In this document: piece after piece, positions 6,531-64,000 of the stretch
How the letters are laid out: every line of letters begins with the position of its first letter
Numbering within the stretch: the first letter of the stretch is position 1
Source of the DNA: Eledone cirrhosa
Taxonomy: Eukaryota
Direction: 5' to 3'
Length of the DNA: 64,000 nt
Assembly: GCA_964016885.1 (NCBI GenBank)
Contig: OZ024744.1
Span: 118,420,001 to 118,484,000, forward strand
Translations under genes and position numbers: made by a program
Notes under the pieces: model-generated
What the model was told of the DNA's origin: nothing
Databases searched by the model: none
Seen by the model: only the letters and a program-made list of their open reading frames with translations

Positions 6531-8308
6531 CCACCATCATCATCATCATCAGTTTAACGTCCATTTTCCACGCTAGCATGAGTTTGGACGGGAATTTTCC
6601 CACTTGAGGCAAGATTGGTTGTCTTGCTCAGGACTGTCTGGCGGGTTTACTACGGCTGGATGCCCTTCCTAACACCAACCACATTTACAGTGTGGACTGG
6701 GAGGTTTTTACCATGTTACCTACACGGCTACATTACAGCGTGGACTGTGTTTTTTTGTCGTGACACCTACACGACCTCATTTATTTAGGACTGGATGTTG
6801 TGGTACCAACATAACTTTACATCGAAAGGGGTGGTGTAGATGGCGGTGGGGTAGGGTTAGTGGGACGGGGGTGTATTTTGGTTAAGAGGTGCCTACTGAC
6901 TGTAGGTTTCGCTTTGTACTTAGGCAAGGCGGGTCTTCTGTATTACTGTGTAGCGCCAAAGATCTCGGTCCAGTGACATCGTCTTGGAGGTGTGTGTGAG
7001 GTCGGAATTTATCAAGTCGTCCCAGGTTTTTCTGGGTCTGCCTACTCCGTGGCTACCGTCTATCTTTATTGCCCTGCACTTTGTTATACAGCTGTCGTCT
7101 TTCATGCGCATCACGTGACCATACCAACGTAGCCTTCTCTCGAGTAAACAACATCTGATCCCTCTTATTCCTAATTTCTCCCTTAGTACGTTTATGCTTT
7201 GCCGTTCACATATATTACTATTACACATCCAACGGAGCATGCAAGCTTCGTTCCTCTCCACACAAGGCCCATGTATCACTGCCATGTAACATTGCTGTTC
7301 GTATGCAGGCATCATACAGCCTGCCTTTTATTTTTAGGGAGAACCCTTTAGCGGCCAATACTGGTATAAGCCCTCTGAACTTTTTCCATCCCGTTCTGAC
7401 TCTAACTACTGCACTTTCAGAGCACCCTCCGCCACTGCTGATTTTGTCACCCAGGTAACGGAAGCTGTCCACTATTTCTATAGAACCCTCTGCGCAATTG
7501 AAAGAGATAGTATTTTATGGGCACTTGCTGCTACTTATTGCACCAGAGCACCGGCCACATATAAAATCTATATTCTTAGTTAGCTTACCTGTGATCCCAC
7601 TACATCTTTTATGCACCCTTACTTTGCATTTGGGACATAAAATTGAGTTTCTGCCTACGCCTTTCCTACACTCTGAGCATGGCCATTTCCCAGATGGGAC
7701 CAGTGCCCTATTCTCCTTCCTACATATTAGGACTTTAGTCTTAGACAAGTTAACTTTAAGGCCTTTTGATTCTAGGCCATGCTTCCATGTTTGGAATTTC
7801 TTCTCTAGTTCAGCCATTGATTCGGCTATGAGCGTTAGATCATCTGCGTATAGAAGTTCCCATGGGCAGCCGGTATTGAACTCCTCCGTTATAGCTTGGA
7901 GGGCGATAATAAATAGGAGGGGGCTAAGGACGGGGCCCTGATGAACACCAACTTTTACGCTAAACTCTTCACTATATTCGTTGTTAATTCTAACCTTGCT
8001 GACTGTTTCTTTATACATGGCTTGTATAGCTCTCACAAGCCATTCATCTACACCTAGTTTTTAAGAGCCCGCCAGATAATGGAGCGGAGTACTCTGTCAA
8101 AGGCTTTCTCCAGGTCTACAAAAGCTAAGTAGAGGGGTTTACTTTTAGCTAGGTACTTCTGTAGTTGTCGTACAAAGAAAAGAGCGTTTGTGGTACTTTT
8201 ACCTGACACAAACCCGAACTGCATTTCATCTAGATCAATTCGCTCTCTGATTAGTTGCGCTATTACTTTTTCTGTGACCTTCATGACCTGGTCAATTAAT
8301 TTAATGCC
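6531..8308 (-). mobile_element. RTE-clade LINE, 5'-truncated, RT with PHD-like finger, 3' UTR and (GAT)n tail
   Basis: MQFGFVSGKSTT, FVDLEKAFDRV, GVHQG, LLYADDL, DSFRYLG, RRLRWYGHVMR and GRPRKTW motifs; (CAT)n at 6531-6551. Confidence 0.93.
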
Positions 8309-8318
8309 TCTCTCTCTC

Positions 8319-21000: not shown

Positions 21001-21054
<54 letters not shown>

Positions 21055-21059
21055 CATAC

Positions 21060-27548: not shown

Positions 27549-27551
27549 AAC

Positions 27552-27600
<49 letters not shown>

Positions 27601-27780
27601 CAATGATATTAAATAAATGGAAACTATATTTATAAAACCATATTTATATTTATTTAAATATAGTTTCCATTTATTTAATATCATTGAATATTAAACTCCA
27701 GAAAACTTGTCGAGTGCTCTGAATCAGTTATAAACATTTATATTTGTTGAATTACTAACAAATTGAATATCCCTTTTGCT

Positions 27781-27824
<44 letters not shown>

Positions 27825-27827
<3 letters not shown>

Positions 27828-28597: not shown

Positions 28598-29915
<1,318 letters not shown>

Positions 29916-30065
29916 ACTATGGCCTAAAACTCACCAACAGCCTAATAAGCCAACTACACCGTCACAGCTTACATACACCAACTACACCGTCACACCGTCA
30001 CAGGCAAAATATGTATATATATATATGTATATATGTATCTACATGTATACATATGTATATATATA

Positions 30066-33709: not shown

Positions 33710-36570
33710 CTAGCTGCAGTACCAGTTATTCGCAGTTCTCATATATATTAATAATTAATGGTGCTGCGATCGAATGTGGCTTTTTAGCCCAACCAATGAT
33801 CTAAAATGTCTTGCACAGAGTTGGCAACCAAAACATTCACTGGCAATAACCGGCTGTGGTTGGAGTTCATGTACTTTTGCATGTCGTTTGAGCCCTCCTG
33901 CTGATTTACATTCTCTACCACATGCTTGGCAGGCATGATAAGTAGCATCTCCAACAGCAGCCTGGTAGTCAACCACTGGTCTCAGTTTATGACTGCGAAA
34001 ATGACTTTCGAGTCCAGCTTTGCTGAGGCAAAGTCTTGAACAGACGCTGCATGTCAGCGCCTTAGGAGGACCTTCGCTGTCTGGGAAATGTAACAGCAAT
34101 ACCTTTCCTGACATCCCTCTTTACTTTCTTGTATGCAATTCAAGATGCTTCAAAAGCAACTTTCCCCTCATATACAGTCTTTCTCCATTTATTACGATCA
34201 CCAGCAACATTTTCCCATGTATCAGCAGAGATGTTAGCGTCTTTCAGAGAGGCTTTCAAGGAATCCTTATACCTCTTTTTTGGCTTATGTGGCGGTCGTT
34301 TTCCTTTAACTAACTCTCCATAAAAGAGTTGTTTGGGTATTCTAGAATCCTTCATCCTGGCAAGGTGACTACTCCATCGGAGTCTTTGCTTAAGCACAAG
34401 AGCTTCTATGCTTTTACAAAGAGAGCTTTCCAAAAATTGGCATCACTGATGTGTTCCCTCCAGTGAATTCCATGGATCCGTCTGAGACGCATCTGAAATG
34501 CTACAATTGTTTAAGGTGGTGACCCAGGTCTCACAGGCATAAAGAAGAGAAGAGAGCACACATGCCTTGTACACCTTTACCTTTGTCTTCTTGCATATGT
34601 CTCGCCAACCCCAGAGGCACCTTTCTAGCTTTCCAAAAGCATCACTTGCTTTCCTAATCCTAAGTGGGATTTCACTATCAAGGTTGCTGTATTGATTGAC
34701 AGTGCTTCCCAGGTAGACAAACTGATCAACCACTCCAAGTCATTAACCATACACAGATATTTGGTTCATTGTACTGCTTACCAGGGGCAGGTTGGACATG
34801 ACGACAGTTTTCTTGAGACTGGCAATCAATCCTAGAGCAGTGCAAGCATCAGAAAATGCATTCAAAATGTGCTGCATATCAATCTCTGTGTGCACTACAA
34901 GATCGCAATCATCTGCATACAAGAGGTCTCTTATGATTGATGTAAATACTTTTGTTTATGCAGCAAAGCGCCTGATGTTAAATATGCTGCCAGAGGTTCG
35001 ATATCGGATGTAAACACCATGCTCGCAATTCCTGAATGTAATACAGAAAACCATTGCAAAGTATATGGCAAACAGGGTCGGTGCTGGAATATCCCCCTGT
35101 TTCACTCCATTTTTTACTGAGATAGGCTCCGACATTAACCCAAAGCTTCATGTCATCATGGAAAGACCTAACTAAAGCAAGGAACTTATCAGGGCAACCA
35201 AGTTTCTGGAGAACCTTCCATAATGCATCTCTGTTAACAGTATTGAAAGCTTTTGTCAGATGACAAAAACCTGATACAGATCCAAGCCTTGTTCAATGCA
35301 CTTCTTCTGGAGCTGTCTAGCTGAGAAGATCATATCAGTAGTGCCGCGTCCAGCACGAAAACCAGATTGACTTTCAGGAAGAACAGAATCTACAATGTGT
35401 GTCAGCAGATGGTCTAGAAGCACCCTACATAAAATTTTTCCTACGACAGAAAGCAATGATATACCTCTGTAGTTCCTACAATCATTCTTGTTACCCTTTC
35501 CTTTGTACAAGACCACCATTACTGCATCTCTCCAGGCCTCAGGTACGGATTCATTAGCCAATATCCTGCCAAACAAAGAGTGAAGATGTTGCAGGAGTCT
35601 CCTACCACCATATTGTAGGAGCTCAGCATGTATGCCATCCATACCTGGAGACCTTCCACTGTTCAGCTTCGAGATAGCTACTGCAACCTCCTCAAATGTC
35701 GGAGGTTCTTTCACAGGTTTTTCAGGAATGAGATTGAGGAAATCTTCATTGAAGACAGACGGCTGATTCAAAAGTTAATCAAAGTGCTCTCGCCACCTTC
35801 ACAGAATTCCCTGTGGGTCACGAAGAAGTTCCTTGCCATCCCTGGTGCAAAGCGGTTAAACCAGAGAAGAAGATGGTCCATAAACCTCACGCAAGAGACT
35901 GTACAACAGCTTTGTGTTATTGGAATCAGACGCAGTTTGTATCTCACCAACCTTCTCACTCCACCACTGATCCTTCATCTGAGAAAGACTCCGCCTAACA
36001 CGTGATTTTACATCCCTGAGTTCCTCATGCAAGGTATTCCTCTCCTGTGGTTTTGCCGTCAAGTAGCGTGACAGAGCACGCCTCTTATCAGCCAACAAGT
36101 CTTCTATATGTACATCATTCTCATTAAACCAGTCCTGATGTTTTCTCTGCACCAATCCTAGAACACGCCTGCCTACATCATAAACCGATTTTTTAAGGGT
36201 CAGCCAATCCTCACCAAGATCTGCAACATGCATATGTTCTCGCAATATCCTCTTCACACTATTATCTCTAAGACGAGCAGCATTCAATCTTCTGGGCAGG
36301 GTAACACCAGGAGCCTGGATTTTATGTTTTGTAATTAATTTCATTTTTGCATGAACCAGGCGGTGGTCTGTCCAACACTCAGCCCCATGAAGAACATGAA
36401 CACACTGGACACCCCACCTGTCACATACCCTGATAAGGACGGAGTGCAAAAAATGCCATTCCTTACATGCAGGGTGCATCCATGTGGTCTTAAATTTGTT
36501 CTTTTGTTGAAACACATTTCTCTGCTTCCCATCACCACAATTACGTCTACACTGTTCCCACCAACACATT
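33710..36570 (-). mobile_element. RTE/BovB-like LINE (partial APE, RT, three C-terminal C2H2 fingers), decayed
   Basis: ECWTDHRLV, NYRGISLLSVVGK, LPESQSGFRAGRGTTDM, FVYLGS, RIPKQLFYGEL; three Cx2C..H..H fingers at 33755-34060. Confidence 0.92.
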
Positions 36571-36668
36571 TACACTCACACAAGTCAATCCCCTATTTTT
36601 AGACTAAAATCACTGACCTGCTACCAAACTCCCTACTGTGTGTGGAATGTGTGTTGGTATATATTTAT

Positions 36669-38028
36669 AACAGATGCCCTCTTCTTGGTGAGACAAATGC
36701 AAGAGAGGTTCTTAGAGAAGAATAAGCCACTATACTTGGCCTTTGTTGACCTAGAGAAGGCCTTTGATAGGGTACCCCGATCTGTCATCTGGTGGTCCCT
36801 AAGGAAGCTGGGTGTTGAGGAATGGCTTGTAAGGACAGTGCAAACTTTGTACAGAGGTACTCTCAGTAAAGTCAGGGTAGGAATGGAGTTTAGTGAGGAA
36901 TTCCAGATACAAGTAGGAGTACATCAGGGTTCGGTCCTCAGCCCGCTCTTGTTCATTATAGTCCTCCAAGCCATAACAGAGGAGTTTAAGACTGGCTGTC
37001 CATGGGAACTTCTCTATGCTGACGATCTGGCTCTTATGGCAGAATCAGTAGAGGAGCTAGAGAATAAATTCCGGCTATGGAAACAGCAGTTGGAAGCAAG
37101 AGGACTGAGAGTAAATCTAGCTAAGACAAAAGTGTTGATGAGTAGAAAAGAGGACAAAACCCTGATTCCGTCAGGGAAATGGCCATGTTCGATATGCAGA
37201 AAAGGAACTGGCATAAATTCTATAAAATGCACACAATGTAGGTCCTGGGTACACAAGAGATGTAGCGGGATAGCAGGCAAACTAACAGGTAGGGAGAAAT
37301 ATGTATGCAGTAGATGTACAGGGAAATTAGACAGTAGAAGTCGCACTGATAGACACATTTTTCAAATGCGAGAGGGCGCTATAGAAGTGGTGGATAGCTT
37401 CCGGTACCTAGGAGATCAGATTAGCATGGGAGGAGGGTGTTCCGAGGCCATAGTATCTAGAATAAGGACGGGTTGGAAGAAGTTTAGGGAGCTGCTTCCT
37501 CTGTTGACGAAGAAGGGTTTCTCCCTGCGTACGAAAGGCCGGTTGTATGATGCCTGTGTGAGGAGCGCGATGCTGCATGGTAGTGAGACATGGGCAGCTA
37601 CCGCAGAAGATATGCGACGGCTGGAGAGAAATGAGGCAAGCATGCTCCGTTGGATGTGCAGTGTAAATGTGCGTGAACGACCCAGCATAAATGTGTTGAG
37701 AGAGAAACTGTCTGAGAGGGATAGAATGTAGTGTACGGGAGAGGAGACTGAGGTGGTATGGACATGTGATGCGCATGGAGGATGACCGATGGGTGAAGAA
37801 GTGCCAGGAAATGCCAGTTGAAGGAAGACGTAGTAGAGGTAGACCACGAAAAACATGGGCGGAGGTGGTGAGAACAGACCTCAGATCATTGAAGCTCACG
37901 GTGGAGATGACGAGGAACCGTGACGAGTGGAGAGATGCTGTGCTGAATAAGACCCGTCCCACCCTTGCAAGCAGGGAAAAGCGGACGTAAAATGATGATG
38001 ATGATGATGAATGATGATGATGATGATA
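36669..38028 (+). mobile_element. RTE-clade LINE, young 5'-truncated copy with PHD-like finger and (GAT)n tail
   Basis: ~350-aa open RT frame; highly similar to 24838-26140 in the opposite orientation; (ATG)n tail at 37992-38028. Confidence 0.95.
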
Positions 38029-38144: not shown

Positions 38145-38752
38145 TCCCTACCAAATATCTGCTACACAAAAGAGGAGGGCGATCAGTCGACAATAAATGT
38201 AGGCTGTGTAAAACAAGATTGAAGATGTTAGCCACATTGTTGCCATCTGTGAAAGAATGTTGTCTCGCTACTACCTCCCCATGAGACACAATGGGATAGC
38301 TAGAACCATCTGGAACACACCAAGGAAAACAAAATTAAAAACAAATAGGGTGGAATATGTTGAGATAGATGGCACTAAGGAATATTGGTGGGACCTGAAA
38401 ATAAAAACTGCCACCAAATTAAAACACAACCGGCCTAATATTGTTGTTTGGGGGCACACATTGAAAACATGCTCTGTTGTAGAGATCAGCTGCCCACATG
38501 ATGTCAATGTTGTATGAAAAATACAGGAGAATGTGGACATCTACAGACCATTGATGAGGAGTTTATAGATCCAGTATCCAATATACACCTTCAGCTTCAT
38601 ACTCATCATTATTGGAGCTAGAGGTTATATACCAACCCACTTGGACCAAAGTATAACTGAACTTGGATTTGTGGACAAAGACCACAGCTCACTAATTTCT
38701 AGACTACAAATGGCTGCAATAGCTGGCACCTTCAAAATTGGTAAAACATTCA
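38145..38752 (+). mobile_element. R4/Dong-like non-LTR element C-terminal fragment (CCHC knuckle + restriction-like endonuclease)
   Basis: QEQELPTKYL, CRLC..EDVSHIVAIC, RHN, HNRPNIVV..VVEISCP and IIIGARG motifs. Confidence 0.8.
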
Positions 38753-39957
38753 TTCTAACCTTGCTGACTGTTCCTCTATACATGGGTTGTATAGCTCTTA
38801 CAAGCCATTCATACTCCTAGTTTGCTAAGAATGTAGATTTTATATGTGGCCGGTGCTCTGGTGCAATAAGTAGCAGCAAGTGCCCACAGAATACTAGCTC
38901 ATTCCATTGCACAGATGGTTCTATAGAAATAGTGGACACCTTCCGTTACCTGGGTGACAAAATCAGCAGTGGGGGAGGGTGCTCTGAAAGTACAGTAGCC
39001 AGAGTCAGAACGGGATGGAAAAAGTTCAGAGAGCTTATACCAGTATTGGCCGCTAAAGGGTTCTCCCTAAAAATGAAAGGCAGATTGTATGATGCTTATA
39101 TACAAACAGCAATGCTACATGGCAGTGAGACATGGGCCTTGTGTGCAGAGGATCTACGCAGACTGGAGAGGAACGAAGCTTGCATGCTCCGTTGGATGTG
39201 TAACAGTAATATATGTGAACGGCAAAGCATAAATGAACTAAGTGAGAAATTAGGAATAAGAGGGATCAGATGCTGTTTACTTGAGAGAAGACTACGTTGG
39301 TATGGTCATGTGATGCGCATGAAAGATGACAGCTGTATAAAATATTGCAGGGTGATCAAATTTGATGGAAGTTACGGAGTAGGCAGACCCAGAAAAACCT
39401 GGGATGATCTGATAAATTCCGACCTTACACACTTGCACCTCTCTAAGACAATGACACGGGATTGAGACCTTTGGCACTCTGCAGTAATACGGAAGATCCA
39501 CCTCCCCTACGTACAAAGTTAAACCTAGTCAGTAGTCACCTCTTAACCAAATATACACTCCGACCCACTACCCCTACTCCCTCTTCCCACTCCGACCCAC
39601 ACCACCTTTTTTCTGTAAAGTTATGTTGGTACCACAACAGCCAGTCCAAACTAAAGTGGTAGTGTAGTTGACATGACAAAAAGTACCCAGTACACACTGT
39701 AAAGTGGTCATGTAGTTGACATGACAAAAAGTACCCAGTACACACTGTAAAGTGGTCATGTAGGTGTCATGACAAAAAGTACCCAGTGCACACTGTAAAT
39801 GTGGTTGGTGTTAGGAAGGGCCTCCAGCCATAGTAAACTTGCCAGATAGTCCTATATGACTGAGATACAGTCACCCGATCCATCTTGCCTCAAGTGGGAG
39901 TCTCACTCATGCTAGCGTAGAAGATGGATGTTAAACAATGATGATGATTATGATGAT
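38752..39957 (+). mobile_element. RTE-clade LINE (family of 6531-8308) with a short inverted 5' segment and 48-bp repeats in the 3' UTR
   Basis: DTFRYLGDKISSGGGCSES..GRPRKTW; 38752-38822 matches 7989-8058 in antisense; (GAT)n tail at ~39938-39957. Confidence 0.9.
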
Positions 39958-46482: not shown

Positions 46483-47410
46483 CAATAATGATGATATTTT
46501 TAATACAGTGTTTTCGATTGTAGTATCAATTTCAACTCCTTGAAAGTCGTATCTATGTAACTGACAACTATCAATTTAACCTGAAATATAGTAAAATATT
46601 CGACAATTGTGTGTTGACATCTCGTTTATTTTTCTATCAACTATAAATAAAGTACGTCTGTCTAATTGTATTTAAGTGTACTTATGGTTTCATAGACACC
46701 TCGGCCTTGGTTTTCAAGGTATTTCTCACAACTCCTGGCACTTAAATCTTTCAACACACTACAGCTGGTTCACACACAAACACACACACACGTGTGTTTG
46801 TGTGTGTATATGTATGTATATGCGCATATGTGTATATGTGCATATGTATATGTATGTATGAATGTGGATCATCATTTCTGTCAAATTTTCCATGTTTGCA
46901 TGGGTTAGACAGGTCATCCATACATAGAGGCAACTCTGGCCATGTGTCACACCTTGCTCTGGTGACGTCTGCAAATTTGGCTGAGTATTTTACAACTGGA
47001 TGCCCTTCCTAACACCAAGTACGTTTACAGTGTGGAACTGGACGGCTCCGTTCTGAGGAGGGACAGGCCAGTTGGCTGCGCCAAACCAATCACACAACAT
47101 TACCACAGTTTGGGCCTAGTACTGGTTGGCACTGCTATGAGGGGTGACAGGTGCAGAACCACAGTTTGGAAGCCTGGTCTTGGATGGTACCACTTTGCAA
47201 AAGGACCAGTGATATCACTATGAGGAGGGACAGGCCAATTGGCTGCACTGAACCCTTCTCACAGCGACACCCCAGTTTCAGAGCTGGGCACTCTCTATGC
47301 GACAGACAATTCTCAATGTGAAACCGAAGCCTGGGATTGGATGGCGCCACTATGAGGAGGGACGGGCCAGCCATGCCTAACCCATCTCACAGTGGAACAA
47401 TAGCCTAGAT

Positions 47411-47632: not shown

Positions 47633-48533
47633 TACTAGATGGTGCCACTCTGAGGAAAGATAGGTGCACAGTATAGGAGGCTGGACGACAGAAGGAACAC
47701 AGTTTGAGGGACCCGGCACTGGAGAAGGGACAGGCCGAACCTCTCCTACAGTGGTACACCAGTTTCAGAGCTGGGCCCTCTCCACACAACAAACCATTCT
47801 CAATATGAAACCACATTTTGTGAGCCTGGGACTGTGTGGCACACTTATGAAGAGGGACATGCCAGTAGGTCACGCTGAACCCTACAGCAGCACCCCAGTT
47901 TCGGAACAAGCCCTTCACAAGATCACATTTTACTTCTGGATCCCCACATTGGATGACCGTGATGAAACTCTCGTGGACCTGTCATCGACCTTTTTTGCAG
48001 TGTGATGCTGGGCAGTGCCATTTTGATCCAAGTCTAATATTGAGTTGTCAGAGCCGATCTTTTGTTGAACGTTGTAGTGCCAGAGGACTCAGTCCTGTGT
48101 CATCCCCATTGTTGAGTTCCGTCCTTATTATTTCCTCCCACGTCTTCCTGAATCTCCATCTCTTGGTGCCTCCTGCAACTTTTAAAGCCCTACAACTCTT
48201 TAAGCAGCTAACATTCTTCATGCGGCACATCACGTGACCATACCAGTGTCGTCTTCTCTGTCGCACACAGCATTTGATCCTTCTTATACCCAGTTTCACT
48301 CTTAACATTCTGTTGCTCACATACACATCCATCTCACCATATATACTTTGTTTCTTTTCAGCCTCCGTATGTCCTTGGCATGCAGAGCCCATCTTTCACT
48401 ACAAGGTAGCATTACTGAGTGCACACAGGATAAGTGAGGGACCATTTGTAGTTAACAGCAGCAGCTTCTTGAACTTTTTCCAACCTGTTCTTACTCTTGT
48501 GACTGTGCTGATTTGGTCCCACAAATAGCAGAA

Positions 48534-50727
48534 GCCATTTCCCTGGTATCAGAGCTCTGTGTCCTCTACTGAGTAGGGCCATTTCCCTGGTATCAGAGCT
48601 CTGTGTCCTCTACTGAGTAGGGCCATTTCCCTGGTATCAGAGCTCTGTGTCCTCTACTGAGTAGGGCCATTTCCCTGGTAGCAGAGCTCTGTGTCCTCTA
48701 CTGAGTAGGGCCATTTCCCTGGTATCAGAGCCCTGTGTCTTCTACTGAGTAGGGTCATTTCCCTGGTAGCAGAGCTCTGTGTCCTCTACTGAGTAGGGCC
48801 ATTTCCCTGGTATCAGAGCTCTGTGTCCTCTACTGAGTAGGGTCATTTCCCTGGTATCAGAGCTCTGTGTCTTCTACTGAGTAGGGTCATTTCCCTGGTA
48901 GCAGAGCTCTGTGTCCTCTACTGAGTAGGGTCATTTCCCTGGTATCAGAGCTCTGTGTCTTCTACTGAGTAGGGTCATTTCCCTGGTAGCAGAGCTCTGT
49001 GTCCTCTACTGAGTAGGGCCATTTCCCTGGTATCAGAGCTCTGTGTCCTCTACTGAGTAGGGTCATTTCCCTGGTATCAGAGCTCTGTGTCTTCTACTGA
49101 GTAGGGTCATTTCCCTGGTAGCAGAGCTCTGTGTCCTCTACTGAGTAGGGCCATTTCCCTGGTATCAGAGCTCTGTGTCCTCTACTGAGTAGGGTCATTT
49201 CCCTGGTATCAGAGCTCTGTGTCCTCTACTGAGTAGGGTCATTTCCCTGGTATCAGAGCTCTGTGTCTTCTACTGAGTAGGGTCATTTCCCTGGTAGCAG
49301 AGCTCTGTGTCCTCTACTGAGTAGGGCCATTTCCCTGGTATCAGAGCTCTGTGTCCTCTACTGAGTAGGGTCATTTCCCTGGTATCAGAGCTCTGTGTCT
49401 TCTACTGAGTAGGGTCATTTCCCTGGTAGCAGAGCTCTGTGTCCTCTACTGAGTAGGGTCATTTCCCTGGTATCAGAGCTCTGTGTCTTCTACTGAGTAG
49501 GGTCATTTCCCTGGTAGCAGAGCTCTGTGTCCTCTACTGAGTAGGGCCATTTCCCTGGTATCAGAGCTCTGTGTCCTCTACTGAGTAGGGTCATTTCCCT
49601 GGTATCAGAGCTCTGTGTCTTCTACTGAGTAGGGTCATTTCCCTGGTAGCAGAGCTCTGTGTCCTCTACTGAGTAGGGCCATTTCCCTGGTATCAGAGCT
49701 CTGTGTCCTCTACTGAGTAGGGTCATTTCCCTGGTATCAGAGCTCTGTGTCTTCTACTGAGTAGGGTCATTTCCCTGGTAGCAGAGCTCTGTGTCCTCTA
49801 CTGAGTAGGGCCATTTCCCTGGTAGCAGAGCTCTGTGCCCTCTACTGAGTAGGGCCATTTCCCTGGTAGCAGAGCTCTGTGTCCTCTACTGAGTAGGGCC
49901 ATTTCCCTGGTATCAGAGCTCTGTGTCCTCTACTGAGTAGGGTCATTTCCCTGGTATCAGAGCTCTGTGTCCTCTACTGAGTAGGGTCATTTCCCTGGTA
50001 GCAGAGCTCTGTGTCCTCTACTGAGTAGGGTCATTTCCCTGGTATCAGAGCTCTGTGTCTTCTACTGAGTAGGGTCATTTCCCTGGTATCAGAGCTCTGT
50101 GTCTTCTACTGAGTAGGGTCATTTCCCTGGTAGCAGAGCTCTGTGTCTTCTACTGAGTAGGGCCATTTCCCTGGTATCAGAGCTCTGTGTCCTCTACTGA
50201 GTAGGGCCATTTCCCTGGTAGCAGAGCTCTGTGTCTTCTACTGAGTAGGGTCATTTCCCTGGTATCAGAGCTTTGTGTCCTCTACTGAGTAGGGCCATTT
50301 CCCTGGTATCAGAGCTCTGTGTCTTCTACTGAGTAGGGTCATTTCCCTGGTAGCAGAGCTCTGTGTCTTCTACTGAGTAGGGTCATTTCCCTGGTATCAG
50401 AGCTCTGTGTCCTCTACTGAGTAGGGTCATTTCCCTGGTAGCAGAGCTCTGTGTCCTCTACTGAGTAGGGCCATTTCCCTGGTATCAGAGCTCTGTGCCC
50501 TCTACTGAGTAGGGCCATTTCCCTGGTATCAGAGCTCTGTGCCCTCTACTGAGTAGGGTCATTTCCCTGGTAGCAGAGCTCTGTGTCCTCTACTGAGTAG
50601 GGTCATTTCCCTGCTAGCAGAGCTCTGTGTCCTCTACTGAGTAGGGTCATTTCCCTGGTATCAGAGCTCTGTGCCCTCTACTGAGTAGGGTCATTTCCCT
50701 GGTAGCAGAGCTCTGTGCCCTCTACTG
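48534..50727. repeat. 44-bp satellite, ~50 copies
   Basis: Unit gccatttccctggtatcagagctctgtgtcctctactgagtagg; three main variable positions. Confidence 0.97.
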
Positions 50728-51194
50728 CTCACAAGGGTTTTGGTCTTGGACAGGATGACTTTTGACCTTTTGTTTCCAAGTTGTGCCTCCATCTCTGAAT
50801 TTGTTTCTCTAACTCTGCCATAGACTTGGCTATGAAGGTAAGGTCATCGGCGTATAGTAATTCCCATGGGTAACCTCTGCTGGCATCCGGCTGTAGAAAC
50901 TAAGCCCAAATCAGTTCTGTATGAGCAAGATATGGTCACCTGATCTATCTTGGGTGAGTGATGCTGCCAATAAAAACCCACACACCTGTTGGTTTTCACT
51001 TCAATTTATTATAAATTTCTGGTTGGTGAGTTCAATAACCGGATGGTTGTTTATATATTGTCAAAGTTCTTTTGTCACATTCTGTGACCTCCTCAGTGAC
51101 TGGTTTATTTTGTCTCTCCTTTGTTCTGTACTATACAATCTTGTTTTTTGTGTTGTATTATATATATATATATATAAAATATATATATATACAA

Positions 51195-52000: not shown

Positions 52001-55000
52001 TTACGACCACTTTACAGTGCGTACTGGGTACTTTTTGTTGTGACACCTACATGACCACTTTAAAATGTGTACTGGGTACTGTTTGTTGTGACACCTACAA
52101 GACCACTTTACAATGTGGACTGCGTAATTTTTATTGTGACACCTACATGACCACTCAACAGTATGTACTGGGTACTTTTTGTTGTGATACCTACATGACC
52201 ACTTTACAGTGTGTACTGGGTACTTTTTCTTGTGACAACAACATGAGCACTTTGCAGTGTGTAGTGGGTACTTTTTGCTGTGACACCAACATGACCACTC
52301 TACAGTGTGTACTGGGTAGTTTTGTGGTGATACCTACATGACCACTTTACAGTGTGTACTGGGTACTTTTTGCATGACACCTACAAGACCACTTTACAGT
52401 GTGTACTGGGTACTTATTGTTGTGACACCTACATGAATACTTTACAGTGTGTACTGGGTACTTGTTGTTGTGACACCTACATGACCACTCTACAGAGTGT
52501 ACTGGGTAGTTTTGTGATGATACCTACATGACCACTTTACAGTGTATACTGGGTACTTTTGGTTGTGACACCCACATGACCACTTTACAGTGTGTACTGG
52601 GTAGTTTTGTGGTGATACCTCCAGGACCACTTTACAGTGTGTACTGGGTACTTTTTGTTGTGACACCCACATGACCACTTTACAGTGTGTACTGGGTAGT
52701 TTTGTGGTGATACCTCCAGGACCACTTTACAGTGTGTACTGGGTACTTTTTGTTCTGTCAACTACATGACCACTTTACAGTGTGCACTGGGTAATTTTTG
52801 TTGTGAAACCTACATGACTACTTTACAGTGTATGCTGGGTACGTTTGTTGTGACACCTACATGACCACTTTACAGTGAGTACTGGGTACTTTTTGTTGTG
52901 ACACCTACATAATCACTTTACAGTGTGGACTGGGTACTTTTTGTTGTGACACCTACATGACCACTTTACAGTGTGTCTTCGGTACATTTTGTAGTGACAC
53001 AAACATGACCACTTTACAGTGTGTACTGGGTTCTTTTTGTTGTGAGACCTACATGAGCACTTTACAGTGTATGCTTGGGTATGTTTTGTTGTAAAACCTA
53101 CATGACCACTTTACAGTGTGTACTGGGTAATTTTTGTTCTGATACCTACATGACCACTTTACAGTGTGTACTGGGTACTTTTTGTTGTGACACCTACATG
53201 ACCACTTTACAGTGTGTACTGGGTACTTTTTGTTGTGAGACTTACATGACCACTTTACAGTGTGTACTGGGTACTTTTTGTTGTGAAACCTACATGACAA
53301 CCTTACAGTGTGTACTGGGTATGTTTTGTTGTGAAACCTACATGACCACTTTACAGTGTATGCTGGGCACGTTTGTTGTGACAGCTACATGACCACTTTG
53401 CATTCTGTAGTGGGTACTTTTTGTTGTGACACCTACATGACCACTTTACGGTGTGTACTGGGTAATTTTTTTCATGACACCTACATGACCACTTTACAGT
53501 GTGTACTGGGTACTTCTTGTTGTGATACCTACATGACCACTTTACAGTGTGGACTGGGTACTTTTTGTTGTGACACCTACATGACCACTTTACAGTGTGT
53601 ACTGGGTACTTTTTGTTCTGATACCTACGTGACCACTTTGCAGTGTGTACTGGGTACTTTTTGTTGTGGCACCTACATGACCACTCTACAGTGTGTACTG
53701 GGAGTTGTGTGGTGATACATAGATGACCACATTACAGTGTGTACTAGGTACTTTTTGTTGTGACACCTACAAGACCACTTTACAGTGTGTACTGGATACT
53801 TTTTGTGGTGACACCTATATGACCACTTTACAGTGCGTACTGGGTACATGTTGTTGTGTCACCTATATGACCACTTTACAGTGTGTACTGGGTACTTTTT
53901 GTTGTGAAACCTACATGACCACTTTACAGTGTGTACTGGGTACCTTTTATTGTGAGACCTACATCACCACTCTACTGTGTGTACTGGGTACTATTTGTTG
54001 TGAGATTTACATCACCACTTTACAGTGTGTACTGGGTACTTTTTGTCATGACACCTACATGACCACTTTACAGTGTGTACTGCGTACTATTTGTTGTGAC
54101 ACCTACATCACCACTTTACAGTGTGTACTGGGTACTTTTTGTTGTGTCACATATATGATCACTTTACAGTGTGTACTGGGTACTTTTTGTTGTAACACCT
54201 ACATGAGCACTTTACAGTGTGTACTGGGTACTATTTGTTGTGACACCTACATGACTACTTTACAGTGTATACTGGGTACTTTTTGTCATGACACCAACAT
54301 GACGAATTTACAGTGTATGCTGGGTACGTTTCTTGAGACACCTACATGACCACTTTACAGTATGAACTGGGTACCTTTTGTTGTGACACCTGTATGACCA
54401 CTTTACAGTGTGTATTGGGTATATTTTATCGTGACACCTACATGACCACTTTACAGTGTGGAATGTGTACTTTTTGTTGTGTCACCTACATGACCACTTT
54501 ACAGTGAATACTGGGTACTTGTTGTTGTGTCACCTATATGACTACTTTACAGTGTGTACTGGGTACTATTTGTTGTGACACCTACATAACTACTTTAGAG
54601 TGTGTACTCGGTATTTTTGTTGTGACACAAACATAACCACATTACAGTGTGTACTGGGTACGTTTTGTTGTGAGACCTACATGACCACATTACAGTGTGA
54701 ACTGGGTATGTTTTGTTGTGAAACCTACTTGACCACTTTTCAGTGTGTACTGGGTATGATTGTTGTGACACCTACATGACTACTTTAGAGTTTGTACTAG
54801 GTTGGTTTTGTCATGACACCTACATGACCACTTTACAGTGCGTACTGGGTACTTGTTGTTGTGTCACCTATGTGACCACTTTAGAGTGTGTACTGGGTAC
54901 TATTTGTTGTGACACCTACATGACTACTTTACATTTGTACTCGATACTTTTTGTTGTGAAACAAACATGACCACTTTAGAGTGTGCACTGGGTACTTTTT

Positions 55001-58000
55001 GTTATGAACCCTACATGACCACTTTACAGTGAGGACTGGGTGTTTTTTGTTGTAACACCTACATGACCTTCTTACAGTGTGTACTGTGTACTTTTTGTGA
55101 TGACACCTACGAGACAACTTTACAGTGTATGCTGGGTACGTTTGTTGTTACACGTACATGACCACTTTACAGTGTGTACTGGGTACTTTTGGTTGTGACA
55201 GCTACATGACCACTTTATAGTGTGTACTGGGTACCTTTTGTTGTGACCCCTACATGACCACTTTACAGTGTGGACAGGATACCCTTTGTTGTGGCACCTA
55301 CATGACCACTTTACAGTGTGTACTGGGTACTTTTTGTTGTGAGACTTACATGACCACTTTACAGTGTGTACTGGGTACTTTTTGTTGTGAAACCTACATG
55401 ACAACCTTACAGTGTGTACTGGGTATGTTTTGTTGTGAAACCTACATGACCACTTTACAGTGTATGCTGGGCACGTTTGTTGTGACAGCTACATGACCAC
55501 TTTGCAGTGTGTAGTGGGTACTTTTTGTTGTGACACCTACATGACCACTTTACGGTGTGTACTGGGTACTTTTTGTTGTGACACCTACATGACCACTTTA
55601 CAGTGTGTCTTCGGTACATTTTGTAGTGACACAAACATGACCACTTTACAGTGTGTACTGGGTTCTTTTTGTTGTGACACCTACATGACCACTCTACAGT
55701 GTGAACTGGGTACTTTTTTTGTGATACCTACATGACCTCTTTACAGTGTGTAATGGGTACATTTCATGACACCTACATGACCACTTTAGTCTATATTGGG
55801 TACTTTTTGTGGTAAAACCTACATGACTACTTTACTGGGTATGTTTTGTTGTGACACCTACATGACCACTTTTCAGTGTATGCTGGGTACTTTGTGTTGT
55901 GTCACCTACATGACCACTTTACAGTGTGTACTGGATACTTTTTGTTGTGACACCTACATGACCACTCTACAGTGTGTACTGGGTACTTTTTATTGTGACA
56001 CCTACATGACGAACTTTACAGTGTGTACTAGGTTCTTTTTGTCATGACACCTACATGACCAATTTACAGTGTGTACTCGGTAATTTTGTGGTGACACCTA
56101 CATGACCACTTTACATTTGTACTCGGTACTTTTTGTTGTGACACAAACATGACCACTTTACAGTGTGTACTCTGGTGCTTTTTGTTGTGACACCTACATG
56201 ACCACTTTACAGTGTGTACTAGGTACTTTTTGTTGTGAAACCTACCTGACCACTTTACAGTGTATTGGGTACTTTTTGTGATGACACCTACAAGGCAACT
56301 TTACAGTGTATGCTGGGTACATTTGTTGTGACACCTACATCACCACTTTACAGTGTGTACTGAGTACTTTTGGTTGTGACAGCTACATGACCACTTTACA
56401 GTGTGTACTGGGTACCTTTTGTTGTGATCCCTACATGACCACTTTACAGTGTGGACAGGGTACCCTTTGTTGTGAAACCTACGTGACCACTTTACAGTGT
56501 GTACTGTGTCCTTTTTGTTGTGACACCTACATGACCACTTTACAGTGTGTACTGGGTACATTTCGTCATGACACCTCCATGACCACTTTAGTCTATACTG
56601 GATACTTTTTGTTCTGTCACCTACATGACCACTTTAAAGTGTGTACTGGGTATCTTTTGCTGTGACACCTACATGACTTTCTTACATTGTGGACTGGGTA
56701 CTTTTTGTTCTGACACCTACATGACCACTTTACAGTGTGTACTGGGTACTTTTTGTTGTGACACCTATATGACCATTTTACAGTGTGTACTGGGTACTTT
56801 TTGCTGTGTCCCCTACATGACCACTTTGCAGTGTTTACAGGGTATGTTTTGTTGTGACACCTACATGACCACTTTACAGTGTGTACTGGGTACTTTTTGT
56901 TGTGACCCCTACATGACCACTTTGCAATGTTGACAGTGTTCTTTTTGTTGTGATACCTAGATGACCACTTTACAGTGTGTACTGTGTCCTTTTTGTTCTG
57001 ACATCTACATCTGGGTACTTTTTGTTGTGACACCTACATGACCACTTTACAGTGTGTACTGGGTACCTTTTGTTGTGATCCCTACATGACCACTTTACAG
57101 TGTGGACAGGGTACCCTTTGTTGTGAAACCTACGTGACCACTTTACAGTGTGTACTGTGTCCTTTTTGTTGTGACACCTACATGACCACTTTACAGTGTG
57201 TACTGGGTACATTTCGTCATGACACCTCCATGACCACTTTAGTCTATACTGGATACTTTTTGTTCTGTCACCTACATGACCACTTTAAAGTGTGTACTGG
57301 GTATCTTTTGCTGTGACACCTACATGACTTTCTTACATTGTGGACTGGGTACTTTTTCTTCTGACACCTACATGACCACTTTACAGTGTGTACTGGGTAC
57401 TTTTTGTTGTGACACCTATATGACCATTTTACAGTGTGTACTGGGTACTTTTTGCTGTGTCCCCTACATGACCACTTTGCAGTGTTTACAGGGTATGTTT
57501 TGTTGTGACACCTACATGACCACTTTACAGTGTGTACTGGGTACTTTTTGTTGTGACCCCTACATGACCACTTTGCAATGTTGACAGTGTTCTTTTTGTT
57601 GTGATACCTAGATGACCACTTTACAGTGTGTACTGTGTCCTTTTTGTTCTGACATCTACATCTGGGTACTTTTTGTTGTGACACCTACATGACCACTTTA
57701 CAGTGTGTACTGGGTACCTTTTGTTGTGATCCCTACATGACCACTTTACAGTGTGGACAGGGTACCCTTTGTTGTGAAACCTACGTGACCACTTTACAGT
57801 GTGTACTGTGTCCTTTTTGTTGTGACACCTACATGACCACTTTACAGTGTGTACTGGGTACATTTCGTCATGACACCTCCATGACCACTTTAGTCTATAC
57901 TGGATACTTTTTGTTCTGTCACCTACATGACCACTTTAAAGTGTGTACTGGGTATCTTTTGCTGTGACACCTACATGACTTTCTTACATTGTGGACTGGG

Positions 58001-61000
58001 TACTTTTTGTTCTGACACCTACATGACCACTTTACAGTGTGTACTGGGTACTTTTTGTTGTGACACCTATATGACCATTTTACAGTGTGTACTGGGTACT
58101 TTTTGCTGTGTCCCCTACATGACCACTTTGCAGTGTTTACAGGGTATGTTTTGTTGTGACACCTACATGACCACTTTACAGTGTGTACTGGGTACTTTTT
58201 GTTGTGACCCCTACATGACCACTTTGCAATGTTGACAGTGTTCTTTTTGTTGTGATACCTAGATGACCACTTTACAGTGTGTACTGTGTCCTTTTTGTTC
58301 TGACATCTACATCTGGGTACTTTTTGTTGTGACACCTACATGACCACTTTACAGTGTGTACTGGGTACCTTTTGTTGTGATCCCTACATGACCACTTTAC
58401 AGTGTGGACGGGGTACCCTTTGTTGTGAAACCTACGTGACCACTTTACAGTGTGTACTGTGTCCTTTTTGTTGTGACACCTACATGACCACTTTACAGTG
58501 TGTACTGGGTACATTTCGTCATGACACCTCCATGACCACTTTAGTCTATACTGGATACTTTTTGTTCTGTCACCTACATGACCACTTTAAAGTGTGTACT
58601 GGGTATCTTTTGCTGTGACACCTACATGACTTTCTTACATTGTGGACTGGGTACTTTTTGTTCTGACACCTACATGACCACTTTACAGTGTGTACTGGGT
58701 ACTTTTTGTTGTGACACCTATATGACCATTTTACAGTGTGTACTGGGTACTTTTTGCTGTGTCCCCTACATGACCACTTTGCAGTGTTTACAGGGTATGT
58801 TTTGTTGTGACACCTACATGACCACTTTACAGTGTGTACTGGGTACTTTTTGTTGTGACCCCTACATGACCACTTTGCAATGTTGACAGTGTTCTTTTTG
58901 TTGTGATACCTAGATGACCACTTTACAGTGTGTATTGTGTCCTTTTTGTTCTGACATCTACATCTGGGTACTTTTTGTTGTGACACCTACATGACCACTT
59001 TACAGTGTGTACTGTGTACCTTTTATTGTGACACCTACATGACCACTTCACATTGTGTAATGGGTACTTTTTATTGTGACACCTAAATGACCACTTTACA
59101 TTGTGTACTTGTGAAAGCTATATGACCACTTTACAGTGTATGCTAGGTACGTTTGTTGTGGCACCTACATGACCACTTTACAGTGTGAACTGTGTACATT
59201 TTGTTGTGAAACCTGCATGACCACTTTACAGTGTGTACTGTGTACATTTTGTCATGACACCTACATGATCACTTTAGTCTATTCTGGGTACTTTTTGTTG
59301 TGACGCCCAGATGACCACTTTACAGTGTGGGCTGAGTGTTTTTTGTTGTGACACCTATATGACCACTTTACAGTGTGTACTGGGTACTTTTTGCTGTGTC
59401 ACCTACATGACCACTTTGCAGTTTGTACTGGGTAGGTATGTTTTGTTGTGACACCTACATGACCACTTTACAGTGTGTACTGAGTGTGTTTTGTTGTGAC
59501 ACCTATATGATGACTTTACAGTGGATACTAAGTACTTTTTGTTGTGACACCTACATGATGACTTTACAGTGGATACTGGGTTCTTTTTGTCATGACACCT
59601 ACTTGACTACTTTACAGTGTGTACTGGGTACTTTTTGTTGTGACACCTACATGACCACTTTACAGTGTGTACTGGGTACTTTTTGTTGTGAGACTTACAT
59701 GACCACTTTACAGTGTGTACTGGGTACTTTTTGTTGTGAAACCTACATGACAACCTTACAGTGTGTACTGGGTATGTTTTGTTGTGAAACCTACATGACC
59801 ACTTTACAGTGTATGCTGGGCACGTTTGTTGTGACAGCTACATGACCACTTTGCAGTGTGTAGTGGGTACTTTTTGTTGTGACACCTACATGACCACTTT
59901 ACGGTGTGTACTGGGTAATTTTTTTCATGACACCTACATGACCACTTTACAGTGTGTACTGGGTACTTCTTGTTGTGATACCTACATGACCACTTTACAG
60001 TGTGGACTGGGTACTTTTTGTTGTGACACCTACATGACCACTTTACAGTGTGTACTGGGTACTTTTTGTTCTGATACCTACGTGACCACTTTGCAGTGTG
60101 TACTGGGTACTTTTTGTTGTGGCACCTACATGACCACTCTACAGTGTGTACTGGGAGTTTTGTGGTGATACATAGATGACCACATTACAGTGTGTACTAG
60201 GTACTTTTTGTTGTGACACCTACAAGACCACTTTACAGTGTGTACTGGATACTTTTTGTGGTGACACCTATATGACCACTTTACAGTGCGTACTGGGTAC
60301 ATGTTGTTGTGTCACCTATATGACCACTTTACAGTGTGTACTGGGTACCTTTTATTGTGAGACCTACATCACCACTCTACTGTGTGTACTGGGTACTATT
60401 TGTTGTGAGATTTACATCACCACTTTACAGTGTGTACTGGGTACTTTTTGTCATGACACCTACATGACCACTTTACAGTGTGTACTGCGTACTATTTGTT
60501 GTGACACCTACATCACCACTTTACAGTGTGTACTGGGTACTTTTTGTTGTGTCACATATATGATCACTTTACAGTGTGTACTGGGTACTTTTTGTTGTAA
60601 CACCTACATGAGCACTTTACAGTGTGTACTGGGTACTATTTGTTGTGACACCTACATGACTACTTTACAGTGTATACTGGGTACTTTTTGTCATGACACC
60701 AACATGACGAATTTACAGTGTATGCTGGGTACGTTTGTTGAGACACCTACATGACCACTTTACAGTATGAACTGGGTACCTTTTGTTGTGACACCTGTAT
60801 GACCACTTTACAGTGTGTATTGGGTATATTTTATCGTGACACCTACATGACCACTTTACAGTGTGGACTGTGTACTTTTTGTTGTGTCACCTACATGACC
60901 ACTTTACAGTGAATACTGGGTACTTGTTGTTGTGTCACCTATATGACTACTTTACAGTGTGTACTGGGTACTATTTGTTGTGACACCTACATAACTACTT

Positions 61001-64000
61001 TAGAGTGTGTACTCGGTATTTTTGTTGTGACACAAACATAACCACATTACAGTGTGTACTGGGTACGTTTTGTTGTGAGACCTACATGACCACATTACAG
61101 TGTGAACTGGGTATGTTTTGTTGTGAAACCTACTTGACCACTTTTCAGTGTGTACTGGGTATGATTGTTGTGACACCTACATGACTACTTTAGAGTTTGT
61201 ACTAGGTTGGTTTTGTCATGACACCTACATGACCACTTTACAGTGTGTACTGGGTACTTGTTGTTGTGACCCCTACCTGACCACTTTGCAATGTTGACAG
61301 TGTTCTTTTTGTTGTGATACCTAGATGACCACTTTACAGTGTGTACTGTGTCCTTTTTGTTCTGACATCTACATCTGGGTACTTTTTGTTGTGACACCTA
61401 CATGACCACTTTACAGTGTGTACTGGGTACCTTTTGTTGTGATCCCTACATGACCACTTTACAGTGTGGACAGGGTACCCTTTGTTGTGAAACCTATGTG
61501 ACCACTTTACAGTATGTACTGTGTCCTTTTTGTTGTGACACCTACATGACCACTTTACAGTGTGTACTGGGTACATTTCGTCATGACACCTCCATGACCA
61601 CTTTAGTCTATACTGGATACTTTTTGTTCTGTCACCTACATGACCACTTTAAAGTGTGTACTGGGTATCTTTTGCTGTGACACCTACATGACTTTCTTAC
61701 ATTGTGGACTGGGTACTTTTTGTTCTGACACCTACATGACCACTTTACAGTGTGTACTGGGTACTTTTTGTTGTGACACCTATATGACCATTTTACAGTG
61801 TGTACTGGGTACTTTTTGCTGTGTCCCCTACATGACCACTTTGCAGTGTTTACAGGGTATGTTTTGTTGTGACACCTACATGACCACTTTACAGTGTGTA
61901 CTGGGTACTTTTTGTTGTGACCCCTACATGACCACTTTGCAATGTTGACAGTGTTCTTTTTGTTGTGATACCTAGATGACCACTTTACAGTGTGTACTGT
62001 GTCCTTTTTGTTCTGACATCTACATCTGGGTACTTTTTGTTGTGACACCTACATGACCACTTTACAGTGTGTACTGTGTACCTTTTATTGTGACACCTAC
62101 ATGACCACTTCACATTGTGTAATGGGTACTTTTTATTGTGACACCTAAATGACCACTTTACATTGTGTACTTGTGAAAGCTATATGACCACTTTACAGTG
62201 TATGCTAGGTACGTTTGTTGTGGCACCTACATGACCACTTTACAGTGTGTACTGTGTACATTTTGTCATGACACCTACATGATCACTTTAGTCTATTCTG
62301 GGTACTTTTTGTTGTGACACCCAGATGACCACTTTACAGTGTGGGCTGAGTGTTTTTTGTTGTGACACCTATATGACCACTTTACAGTGTGTACTGGGTA
62401 CTTTTTGCTGTGTCACCTACATGACCACTTTGCAGTATGTACTGGGTAGGTATGTTTTGTTGTGACACCTACATGACCACTTTACAGTGTGTACTGAGTG
62501 TGTTTTGTTGTGACACCTATATGATGACTTTACAGTGGATACTAAGTACTTTTTGTTGTGACACCTACATGATGACTTTACAGTGGATACTGGGTTCTTT
62601 TTGTCATGACACCTACTTGACTACTTTACAGTGTGTACTGGGTACTTTTTGTGTGTCAACTGCATGACCATTTTACAGTGTGTACTATGTATTTTTTGTT
62701 GTGACACCTACATTACCACTTTACAGTGTGTACTGGGTATGTTTTTTTATGACACCTACATGACCACTTTATAGTGTGTACTGGGTACTTTTTGTTGTGA
62801 CACCTACACTACCACTTTACAGTGTGTACTGGGTATGTTTTTTTATGACACCTACATGACCACTTTACAGTGTGTACTGGGTAGTTTTTGTTGTGACACC
62901 AACATGACCACTTTACAGTGTGGACTGGGTATGTTTTGTTCTGACACTAATATGACCACTTTACAGCGTGGAATGAGTACACGTTGCTGTAACCCCTACA
63001 GTGACCACTTTACAGTGTGTACTGGGTACTTTTTGTCATGACACCTACATGACCACTTTACAGTGTGTACTGGGTACTATTTGTTGTGACACCTACATCA
63101 CCACTTTACAGTGTGTACTGGGTACTTTTTGTTGTGTCACATATATTATCACTTTACAGTGTGTACTGGGTACTTTTTGTTGTAACACCTACATGAGCAC
63201 TTTACAGTGTGTACTGGGTACTATTTGTTGTGACACCTACATGACTACTTTACAGTGTATACTGGGTACTTTTTGTCATGACACCAACATGACGAATTTA
63301 CAGTGTATGCTGGGTACGTTTGTTGAGACACCTACATGACCACTTTACAGTATGAACTGGGTACCTTTTGTTGTGACACCTGTATGACCACTTTACAGTG
63401 TGTATTGGGTATATTTTATCGTGACACCTACATGACCACTTTACAGTGTGGACTGTGTACTTTTTGTTGTGTCACCTACATGACCACTTTACAGTGAATA
63501 CTGGGTACTTGTTGTTGTGTCACCTATATGACTACTTTACAGTGTGTACTGGGTACTATTTGTTGTGACACCTACATAACTACTTTAGAGTGTGTACTCG
63601 GTATTTTTGTTGTGACACAAACATAACCACATTACAGTGTGTACTGGGTACGTTTTGTTGTGAGACCTACATGACCACATTACAGTGTGAACTGGGTATG
63701 TTTTGTTGTGAAACCTACTTGACCACTTTTCAGTGTGTACTGGGTATGATTGTTGTGACACCTACATGACTACTTTAGAGTTTGTACTAGGTTGGTTTTG
63801 TCATGACACCTACATGACCACTTTACAGTGCGTACTGGGTACTTGTTGTTGTGTCACCTATGTGACCACTTTAGAGTGTGTACTGGGTACTATTTGTTGT
63901 GACACCTACATGACTACTTTACATTTGTACTCGATACTTTTTGTTGTGAAACAAACATGACCACTTTAGAGTGTGCACTGGGTACTTTTTGTTATGAACC
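52001..64000. repeat. 48-bp satellite, >12 kb (runs off the window), with higher-order repeats
   Basis: Unit gtgacacctacatgaccactttacagtgtgtactgggtactttttgtt; 16-aa repeating ORFs; 651-bp periodicity at 56617/57268/57919/58570. Confidence 0.98.

What the first reader, a model, noticed from the sequence alone, without database searches (positions are those of the whole stretch)
52001..64000. 12-kb 48-bp satellite derived from an RTE LINE 3' UTR, with early stages present in the same window
Seen: the 3' UTR of the RTE copy at 39650-39800 holds three nearly exact monomers in reverse complement (atgacaaaaagtacccagtacacactgtaaagtggtcatgtaggtgtc), running into tggttggtgttaggaagggc. The sister copy at 6675-6790 has 2-3 diverged monomers at the same position (tttacagtgtggactggg..gtgacacctacacgacc), and a third copy has one at ~47024. 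Inference: a series from 1 to 3 to ~250 copies, so the LINE seeds and disperses the satellite.
Basis: partly seen in the sequence, partly recalled or inferred. Interest (0 to 1): 0.8.

Follow-up and report, generated by a model that had tools for sequence, protein, structure and literature searches.

The report
LINE-tail repeat grown into satellite arrays
This 15-kb satellite is built from a 48-base unit that normally sits one to a few times in the tail of a common jumping gene, and that unit likely grew in place into long arrays at many separate sites, a route already known from plant retrotransposons.

Summary
The array is real. It has about 250 units in the window and ends 3,419 bases beyond it, giving 15.4 kb and about 321 units. 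The 48-bp unit is a normal part of the 3' UTR of an endonuclease/reverse-transcriptase LINE group and of a SINE-like element: 34 of 36 tail cores in 400 kb sampled without regard to the repeat carry it. Of 44 array 3' ends inspected, 21 run in register into the LINE tail (antisense control 0 of 44). One array of about 139 kb starts directly at a LINE UTR. Array tails fall in at least four LINE lineages, and variant units are almost all locus-specific. So the LINE disperses a short seed that expands in place; I found no sign that long arrays retrotranspose. The genome makes many other satellites from interspersed repeats, including a 44-bp one from the LINE coding region in this window. This is a well-resolved new animal LINE example of a known route (Ogre 3' UTR satellites).

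The parts
52005..64000 (-). 48-bp satellite array (LINE sense is the minus strand); continues 3,419 bases beyond the window, about 321 units in 15.4 kb; window 53152-53199 is an exact consensus unit
56383..58992 (-). 651-bp higher-order repeat, four near-identical copies, recurring at about 61404-62054; further block duplications at offsets 3062, 6405 and 8990
38749..39955 (+). 5'-truncated LINE copy C: C-terminal coding part, 3' UTR and short ATG-repeat tail
39652..39805 (+). three satellite-type units in copy C's UTR, atypical for this subfamily; likely converted or recombinant
6535..8311 (-). 5'-truncated LINE copy A, same subfamily; reverse transcriptase (Pfam RVT_1, E 4.5e-15) with a PHD-like finger
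6678..6790 (-). two diverged units (A and B), the normal state of this subfamily; predicted hairpins
46860..47041 (-). truncated LINE/SINE-type tail with only about 18 bases of a unit
48536..50727 (-). second satellite, 44 bp x 50, grown in place inside a LINE coding region (RT fragment 50732-50896, C-terminal fragments 48108-48509); found only at this locus

Best explanation
The 48-bp satellite unit is a normal tandem unit of this LINE group's 3' UTR, and the long arrays likely arose by independent in-place expansion of that unit after insertion. Shown: normal copies carry one to a few units. Copies with 4, 5, 14, 21, 31 and 66 units keep LINE sequence on both sides. About half of array 3' ends run in register into the LINE tail, arrays occur in at least four LINE lineages, and the window's array has private variant units and higher-order repeats. 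Inferred: retrotransposition scatters thousands of short seeds. DNA-level slippage or unequal exchange then amplifies some of them, most often on small chromosomes and in distal regions, and block duplication later builds higher-order repeats. Deletion or rearrangement removes the LINE flanks from many arrays, including this one, which joins a reverse-transcriptase fragment about 950 bases upstream of the units in LINE coordinates. The unit is predicted to be an RNA double hairpin kept by the LINE and borrowed by a SINE-like element. Two of its CpG sites are fixed as CpA in the arrays, which points from LINE to satellite.
For: Units per copy: subfamily C, chosen by upstream UTR only: 22 of 29 have 2, 5 have 1, 1 has 4, 1 has 0. 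Position-sampled tails: 34 of 36 have a unit at 70% identity or more (null maximum 69%). Array 3' ends: 21 of 44 in register with a tail against 0 of 44 antisense, about 0.3 expected from tail density; 17 of 36 for arrays of 15 units or more. Array 5' ends: 12 of 47 have same-sense LINE sequence against 2 of 47 antisense. An array sampled from C28:12.671 to 12.810 Mb starts right after LINE ORF and UTR. Tail tree: the array label needs 11 changes, at least 4 forced by well-supported branches. Private variants: 69 distinct 48-bp units with 3 or more differences in the window's array, none found in the other 49 arrays, 42 recurring within it. A 17-unit copy's variant motif occurs at its own locus only (5 of 5 hits). 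Arrays with other consensus units exist (41 of 48, 38 of 48, and a position-sampled array at 42 of 48). At the two CpG sites the CpG state is the commonest in subfamily C unit A, while arrays carry CpA in about 74% of 3,347 units. Hairpins: 90.6% of cells paired against 24-44% in slid controls.
Against: 23 of 44 array 3' ends and 35 of 47 5' ends show no LINE flank, and the window's own array has no tail. Most sampled arrays share one consensus, but they were picked for similarity to this window's unit, so common origin and spread at DNA level are not excluded. One pair of arrays 11 Mb apart shares 25 variant dimers. The two double-sided hairpin changes follow family boundaries, so they are few events. 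The tail tree has 41 of 68 inner branches open, and only 16 array tails were long enough to enter it. Enrichment on small chromosomes rests on 0 of 9 expanded against 9 of 19 unexpanded copies on C1-C4, from a search biased to multi-unit copies (Fisher p 0.03, with one borderline copy counted as unexpanded).
Confidence: 0.8

Rival explanations
1. The satellite arose once or a few times from the LINE unit. It then spread at DNA level (ectopic recombination, gene conversion, circles), using the homologous units in thousands of LINE tails as landing sites, so traffic also runs from satellite back into LINEs.
For: Many arrays share an identical consensus and cluster on C28:111-136 Mb. Over half of the ends lack LINE flanks. 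Copy C has satellite-type units in a subfamily where the other 57 copies examined have none, 12 kb from this array. One array pair shares variant runs.
Against: The shared consensus is partly a selection effect. It also differs by only 1 of 48 bases from the terminal unit of dispersed subfamily S, so copy C's donor may be a dispersed copy. Private variants dominate. Arrays with B-type and hybrid consensus exist.
Confidence: 0.13
2. Master LINE copies bearing long arrays are transcribed and retrotransposed, so the LINE disperses grown arrays.
For: Many tailed arrays lack a 5' LINE flank, as 5'-truncated insertions would. Subfamily S copies vary from 1 to 10 or more units.
Against: No target-site duplication longer than chance 5-7-mers in 15 tailed loci. 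Tails are polyphyletic. No shared variant runs among tailed arrays except single dimers. Exact 75-mer hits avoid C1-C19 in the 100 of 162 places listed, although LINE copies are spread over those chromosomes.
Confidence: 0.05
3. A pre-existing satellite was captured by a few LINE copies.
For: Only copy C looks like uptake of satellite-type units.
Against: The unit is in nearly all tails of several families and a SINE-like element. It forms conserved predicted hairpins there. The CpG state lies in the LINE and the decayed state in the arrays.
Confidence: 0.02

Closest known systems
Satellites from tandem repeats in the 3' UTR of Ogre LTR-retrotransposons (Lathyrus sativus, PMC7004042; pea PisTR-A as cited in PMC9659126)
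   Same: A short tandem array is a normal part of the element's 3' UTR, copies are dispersed, and occasional copies expand in length, preferentially in certain chromosome regions; intermediate stages are visible.
   Different: The host here is a non-LTR LINE in an animal. The unit is shared across several families and a SINE-like element rather than hypervariable, and is a predicted RNA hairpin. Large arrays seen lie distally and on small chromosomes; centromere positions are unknown.
SINE-derived satellites (sSat) of squamate reptiles (PMC10702118)
   Same: Arrays of a few to hundreds of units whose terminal unit continues into the parent element to its end; reported as subtelomeric; repeated independent origins.
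   Different: The parent here is mainly the LINE, with ORF and UTR flanks at 12 of 47 5' ends. The tandem unit pre-exists in the element, whereas sSat units are new duplications of SINE portions of 70-290 nt.
LINE-derived satellites: common cetacean satellite (L1 3' end), chicken HinfI (CR1), Phodopus PROsat (L1 ORF2), Drosophila 18HT (HeT-A/TART), as listed in PMC9659126
   Same: The satellite monomer derives from a non-LTR retrotransposon. The 44-bp array in this window parallels the ORF2-derived cases.
   Different: Those are described as single families with similarity to a LINE part. Here many separate loci show the continuum from 1 to about 2,900 units. RTE does not occur as a whole word in that review.

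Membership tests
Retrotransposon 3' UTR-derived satellite (Ogre-type route) | Short tandem array is a normal part of the element's 3' UTR | tested here: met
   22 of 29 subfamily C copies have 2 units; 34 of 36 sampled tail cores carry a unit
Retrotransposon 3' UTR-derived satellite (Ogre-type route) | Expanded arrays retain element flanks, with intermediate stages | tested here: met
   21 of 44 3' ends and 12 of 47 5' ends; copies with 4-66 units flanked on both sides. The window's own array keeps only an RT fragment.
Retrotransposon 3' UTR-derived satellite (Ogre-type route) | Elements dispersed, long arrays regionally concentrated | tested here: inconclusive
   Searches suggest small chromosomes and distal regions, but lists are truncated and biased to this variant; position sampling found 1 large array in 40 stretches
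Ogre-derived satellites proper | Host is an LTR retrotransposon | tested here: not met
   Host has endonuclease plus reverse transcriptase and a short ATG-repeat tail; works like, is not a member
RTE-clade LINE | AP-endonuclease followed by reverse transcriptase in one sense | tested here: met
   Subfamily C copy L260: endonuclease match 3495-4697 then RT 4854-5872, using window peptides with Pfam Exo_endo_phos_2 (E 6.7e-4, below the curated cut-off) and RVT_1
RTE-clade LINE | 3' end in short tandem repeats, no poly(A) | tested here: met
   ATG-type repeats end copies A and C; PMC3747384 passages give TTG/TTGATG repeats for plant RTEs
RTE-clade LINE | RT phylogeny places it in the RTE clade; ORF1 short or absent | not tested
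No reference RTs on hand and no 5' end examined; the Atlas gave unnamed clusters only.
Centromeric satellite | Binds CENP-A | not testable with these tools
   No chromatin data
Centromeric satellite | One very large array per chromosome | tested here: not met
   50 separate arrays sampled, 0.2 kb to about 139 kb, many on one contig; no exact 75-mer on C1-C19 among 100 of 162 places listed
SINE-derived satellite (sSat) | Parent element is a SINE | tested here: inconclusive
   LINE ORF or UTR lies upstream of 12 arrays, but a SINE-like element shares the unit and tail and its tails were not put in the tree

The most novel reading that the evidence does not exclude
The unit is the LINE's own cis-acting RNA hairpin, and LINE tails and arrays exchange it in both directions. 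Thousands of seeds grow into arrays where the chromosome domain allows, and arrays convert units back into LINE UTRs (copy C). That would make a LINE-satellite feedback loop and a built-in genome-wide assay of where satellites grow, in a genome where a quarter or more of sampled DNA is tandem arrays, many cut from interspersed repeats.
Probability: 0.15. Interest if true: 0.6.

Novelty: new member of a known kind. Interest (0 to 1): 0.33.

Why it matters
Satellite birth from mobile elements is usually inferred from similarity alone. Here a long-contig assembly shows the whole range at many loci: 1-2 units, 4-31, 66 with both flanks, and up to about 2,900 starting at a LINE UTR. Seeds of similar age are scattered genome-wide, so one can ask which chromosome domains let a seed grow, the natural experiment proposed in the Discussion of PMC7004042. 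It also shows that repeat annotation of this genome must treat LINE tails and satellites together. No host function is indicated.

Tried and rejected
Target-site duplications around array plus tail: only 5-7-base chance matches in 15 loci, some of them short LINE or other copies. Whole-array copying: longest exact stretch between arrays was 261 bases over 703 pairs, and variant sharing is confined to one pair. LINE sequence at the window array's left junction: none, one weak 94-bp hit only. Folding of satellite or copy C segments: not beyond shuffles (z 0.37, 0.46, -0.09); copy A z -1.67. A first unit count at 62% identity overlapped the null and was redone at 70%; the stricter count shortens diverged arrays (L134 17 to 4). 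L182 and L190, first read as very long, hold 8 and 6 units. Protein Atlas gave no named family. Earlier scan findings: none. Literature searches found no description of this repeat in listings for: octopus + satellite DNA + RTE, satellite + LINE + untranslated region + RTE (20), LINE-derived (31), octopus + RTE + tandem repeat (32), octopus + minisatellite + assembly (60), cephalopod + satellite DNA (74). The library lacks most subscription journals, and Repbase/Dfam were not searchable, so the family may be named there. Assembly artefact was rejected: units are diverged, flanks are unique, and the repeat is seen at dozens of loci.
Full report
Observation. The window lies at G000:C28:118,420,001-118,484,000 of a 3.0-Gb genome. 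That it is octopus-like is my recall from repeat motifs and comes from no call. The array starts at 52005 with a 48-bp period. Its 179 exact-length units average 92% identity to consensus, and it ends 3,419 bases beyond the window, giving 15.4 kb and about 321 units. It holds a 651-bp higher-order repeat in four near-identical copies and larger block duplications at offsets 3062, 6405 and 8990. LINE copy C holds 3.2 units at 39652-39805, matching at 43, 44 and 40 of 48 against 25-28 in 20 shuffles. Copy A holds two diverged units. The copy at 47024 is a truncated tail with about 18 bases of a unit.

The unit belongs to the LINE. I sampled copies with queries that lack the unit. With upstream UTR (29 copies besides the window's), 22 have two units, 5 one, 1 four and 1 none at the 70% threshold (null maximum 69%). 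With a tail from a sister subfamily, S (29 copies), 4 had no tail core, 2 no unit, and 23 had 1 to 10 units at 70%. In 40 stretches of 10 kb taken at round-number positions, 34 of 36 tail cores have a unit directly upstream. These include a SINE-like element with one unit (the SINE label is from my reading of its head). One exact 25-mer of the LINE's terminal unit occurs 5,583 times. The terminal unit of subfamily S matches the satellite consensus at 47 of 48, and the two subfamily C units at 40 of 48. Copy L260 shows endonuclease then reverse transcriptase in one sense; the RTE clade itself was not tested.

Direction. At two CpG sites the CpG state is the commonest in subfamily C unit A, while about 74% of 3,347 array units carry CpA. 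Deamination makes LINE to satellite the likely direction (inference). In 35 sampled tails two hairpins are 90.6% paired against 24-44% for slid controls, with two double-sided changes that follow family boundaries. Passages of PMC3747384 state that 3' stem-loops are common in LINEs and SINEs that need a specific 3' end. A cis role for this unit is predicted, not shown.

Array ends. I took arrays found, plus any others in the same stretches: 60 pieces of 230 bases or more, 50 arrays after merging. All were chosen through similarity to this window's unit. Of 44 visible LINE-3' ends, 21 run in register into a tail (antisense control 0 of 44; background 0.10 tails per kb per strand). For arrays of 15 units or more the count is 17 of 36. 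Of 47 visible 5' ends, 12 have same-sense UTR or ORF (control 2 of 47). A 66-unit array keeps ORF and tail. Subfamily C copies with 4, 4, 5, 14, 21 and 31 units keep both sides. An array sampled in pieces from C28:12.671 to 12.810 Mb, about 2,900 units if continuous, starts right after LINE ORF and UTR. The window's array is among those without a tail. Its 5' end joins a 110-bp RT fragment about 950 bases upstream of the units in LINE coordinates; two other arrays show similar ORF junctions.

Growth in place, not transport. In a tree of 71 tails (16 from arrays, 27 dispersed S, 28 dispersed C; tails too short to trim were left out) the array label needs 11 changes, at least 4 forced by well-supported branches. 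The window's array has 69 distinct 48-bp units with three or more differences; none occurs in the other 49 arrays and 42 recur within it. Of 1,506 variant dimers 27 are shared, 25 of them by one pair 11 Mb apart. A 17-unit copy's variant is found only at its locus. Arrays with B-type or hybrid consensus exist, including one met by position sampling on C27. No target-site duplications were found. Against this reading, over half of the ends have no LINE flank and most sampled arrays share one consensus, so DNA-level spread is not excluded.

Copy C. It is the only one of 58 subfamily C copies with satellite-type units (1 of 30, 0 of 28; a few loci occur in both sets). It is likely a chimera whose units came from an array or a dispersed S copy, and not an ancestor of the array.

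Context. In the 100 of 162 places listed, exact 75-mers lie on C20, C21, C26, C27 and C28 only. On C1 (443 Mb) the 25-mer gives 14 single hits and arrays at 421 and 433 Mb. Scaling 2,810 exact 25-mers by their rate in sampled arrays (766 in 4,713 units) gives roughly 17,000 units of this variant (rough). The genome is rich in satellites of many kinds: 24-45% of bases in the four 100-kb samples are complex tandem arrays. 9 of 16 such units tested match dispersed loci, two of them LINE coding sequence. The 44-bp array at 48536-50727 sits inside a LINE coding region and occurs only here. The 48-bp unit is thus one favoured seed in a generally satellite-prone genome.

Comparison. The route matches Ogre 3' UTR-derived satellites (PMC7004042: abstract, outline and Discussion read). 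It resembles squamate SINE-derived satellites (PMC10702118: first fifth and passages read). LINE-derived satellites are listed in PMC9659126 (passages and part of Table 1 read; the primary papers were not seen). The Octopus vulgaris repeat annotation has no word beginning 'satellite' in its main text (PMC13282606, passages); its supplements were not read and could name such repeats. Searches listed no description of this repeat.

Verdict. Real, LINE-derived and grown in place: a new member of a known kind, interest 0.33.

Noticed in passing
   Followed up: yes
L062:1694 to L066:10000 (just beyond the window): A 61-bp satellite of more than 48 kb begins about 8 kb after the 48-bp array; the same unit forms a 16-copy array on C25 (L242) and matches dispersed loci.
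   Followed up: partly
L211-L250: 24-45% of bases in 400 kb sampled at round-number positions are complex tandem arrays, nearly each with a different unit (27-308 bp); two derive from LINE coding sequence (L228, L230).
   Followed up: partly
L166/L167 and L079/L080/L168 (C28:124.4 and 135.47 Mb): Two 48-bp arrays 11 Mb apart in opposite orientation share 25 variant dimers: segmental duplication, ectopic exchange or an assembly duplicate.
   Followed up: no
L069-L070 (C28:136.2 Mb): A 125-unit array meets a 5-unit array of opposite orientation at an inversion junction, 0.3 Mb from the contig end.
   Followed up: no
window 7515-8060 and 25148-26191: A PHD-like finger lies within or right after the reverse-transcriptase match in both LINE families (Pfam PHD/PHD_2).
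   Followed up: no
L061:4340-4640 and many loci: An abundant SINE-like element carries exactly one 48-bp unit plus the LINE tail, with changed but still pairing hairpin stems.
   Followed up: partly
L054: A subfamily C copy whose UTR holds three copies of a different, roughly 83-bp unit in place of the 48-bp units.
   Followed up: no
window 11756-12537, 13858-14177, 19623-19995, 23937-24310: Long near-perfect palindromes (94-99.8%) of a repeated element family.
   Followed up: no
window 15795-18468: 531-bp inverted pair (98.9%) around broken reading frames that look Penelope-like (recalled motifs, not tested).
   Followed up: no
window 21002-23147: A 934-bp inverted duplication at 98% identity.
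   Followed up: no
window 24700-27900, 28730-29920, 36510-37990: A second LINE family with endonuclease and RT (about 68% DNA identity to copy A) that gave no match to the 48-bp unit.
   Followed up: partly
L067:1-900: A 47-bp tandem repeat matching the LINE's C-terminal coding region, again next to a LINE remnant.
   Followed up: no
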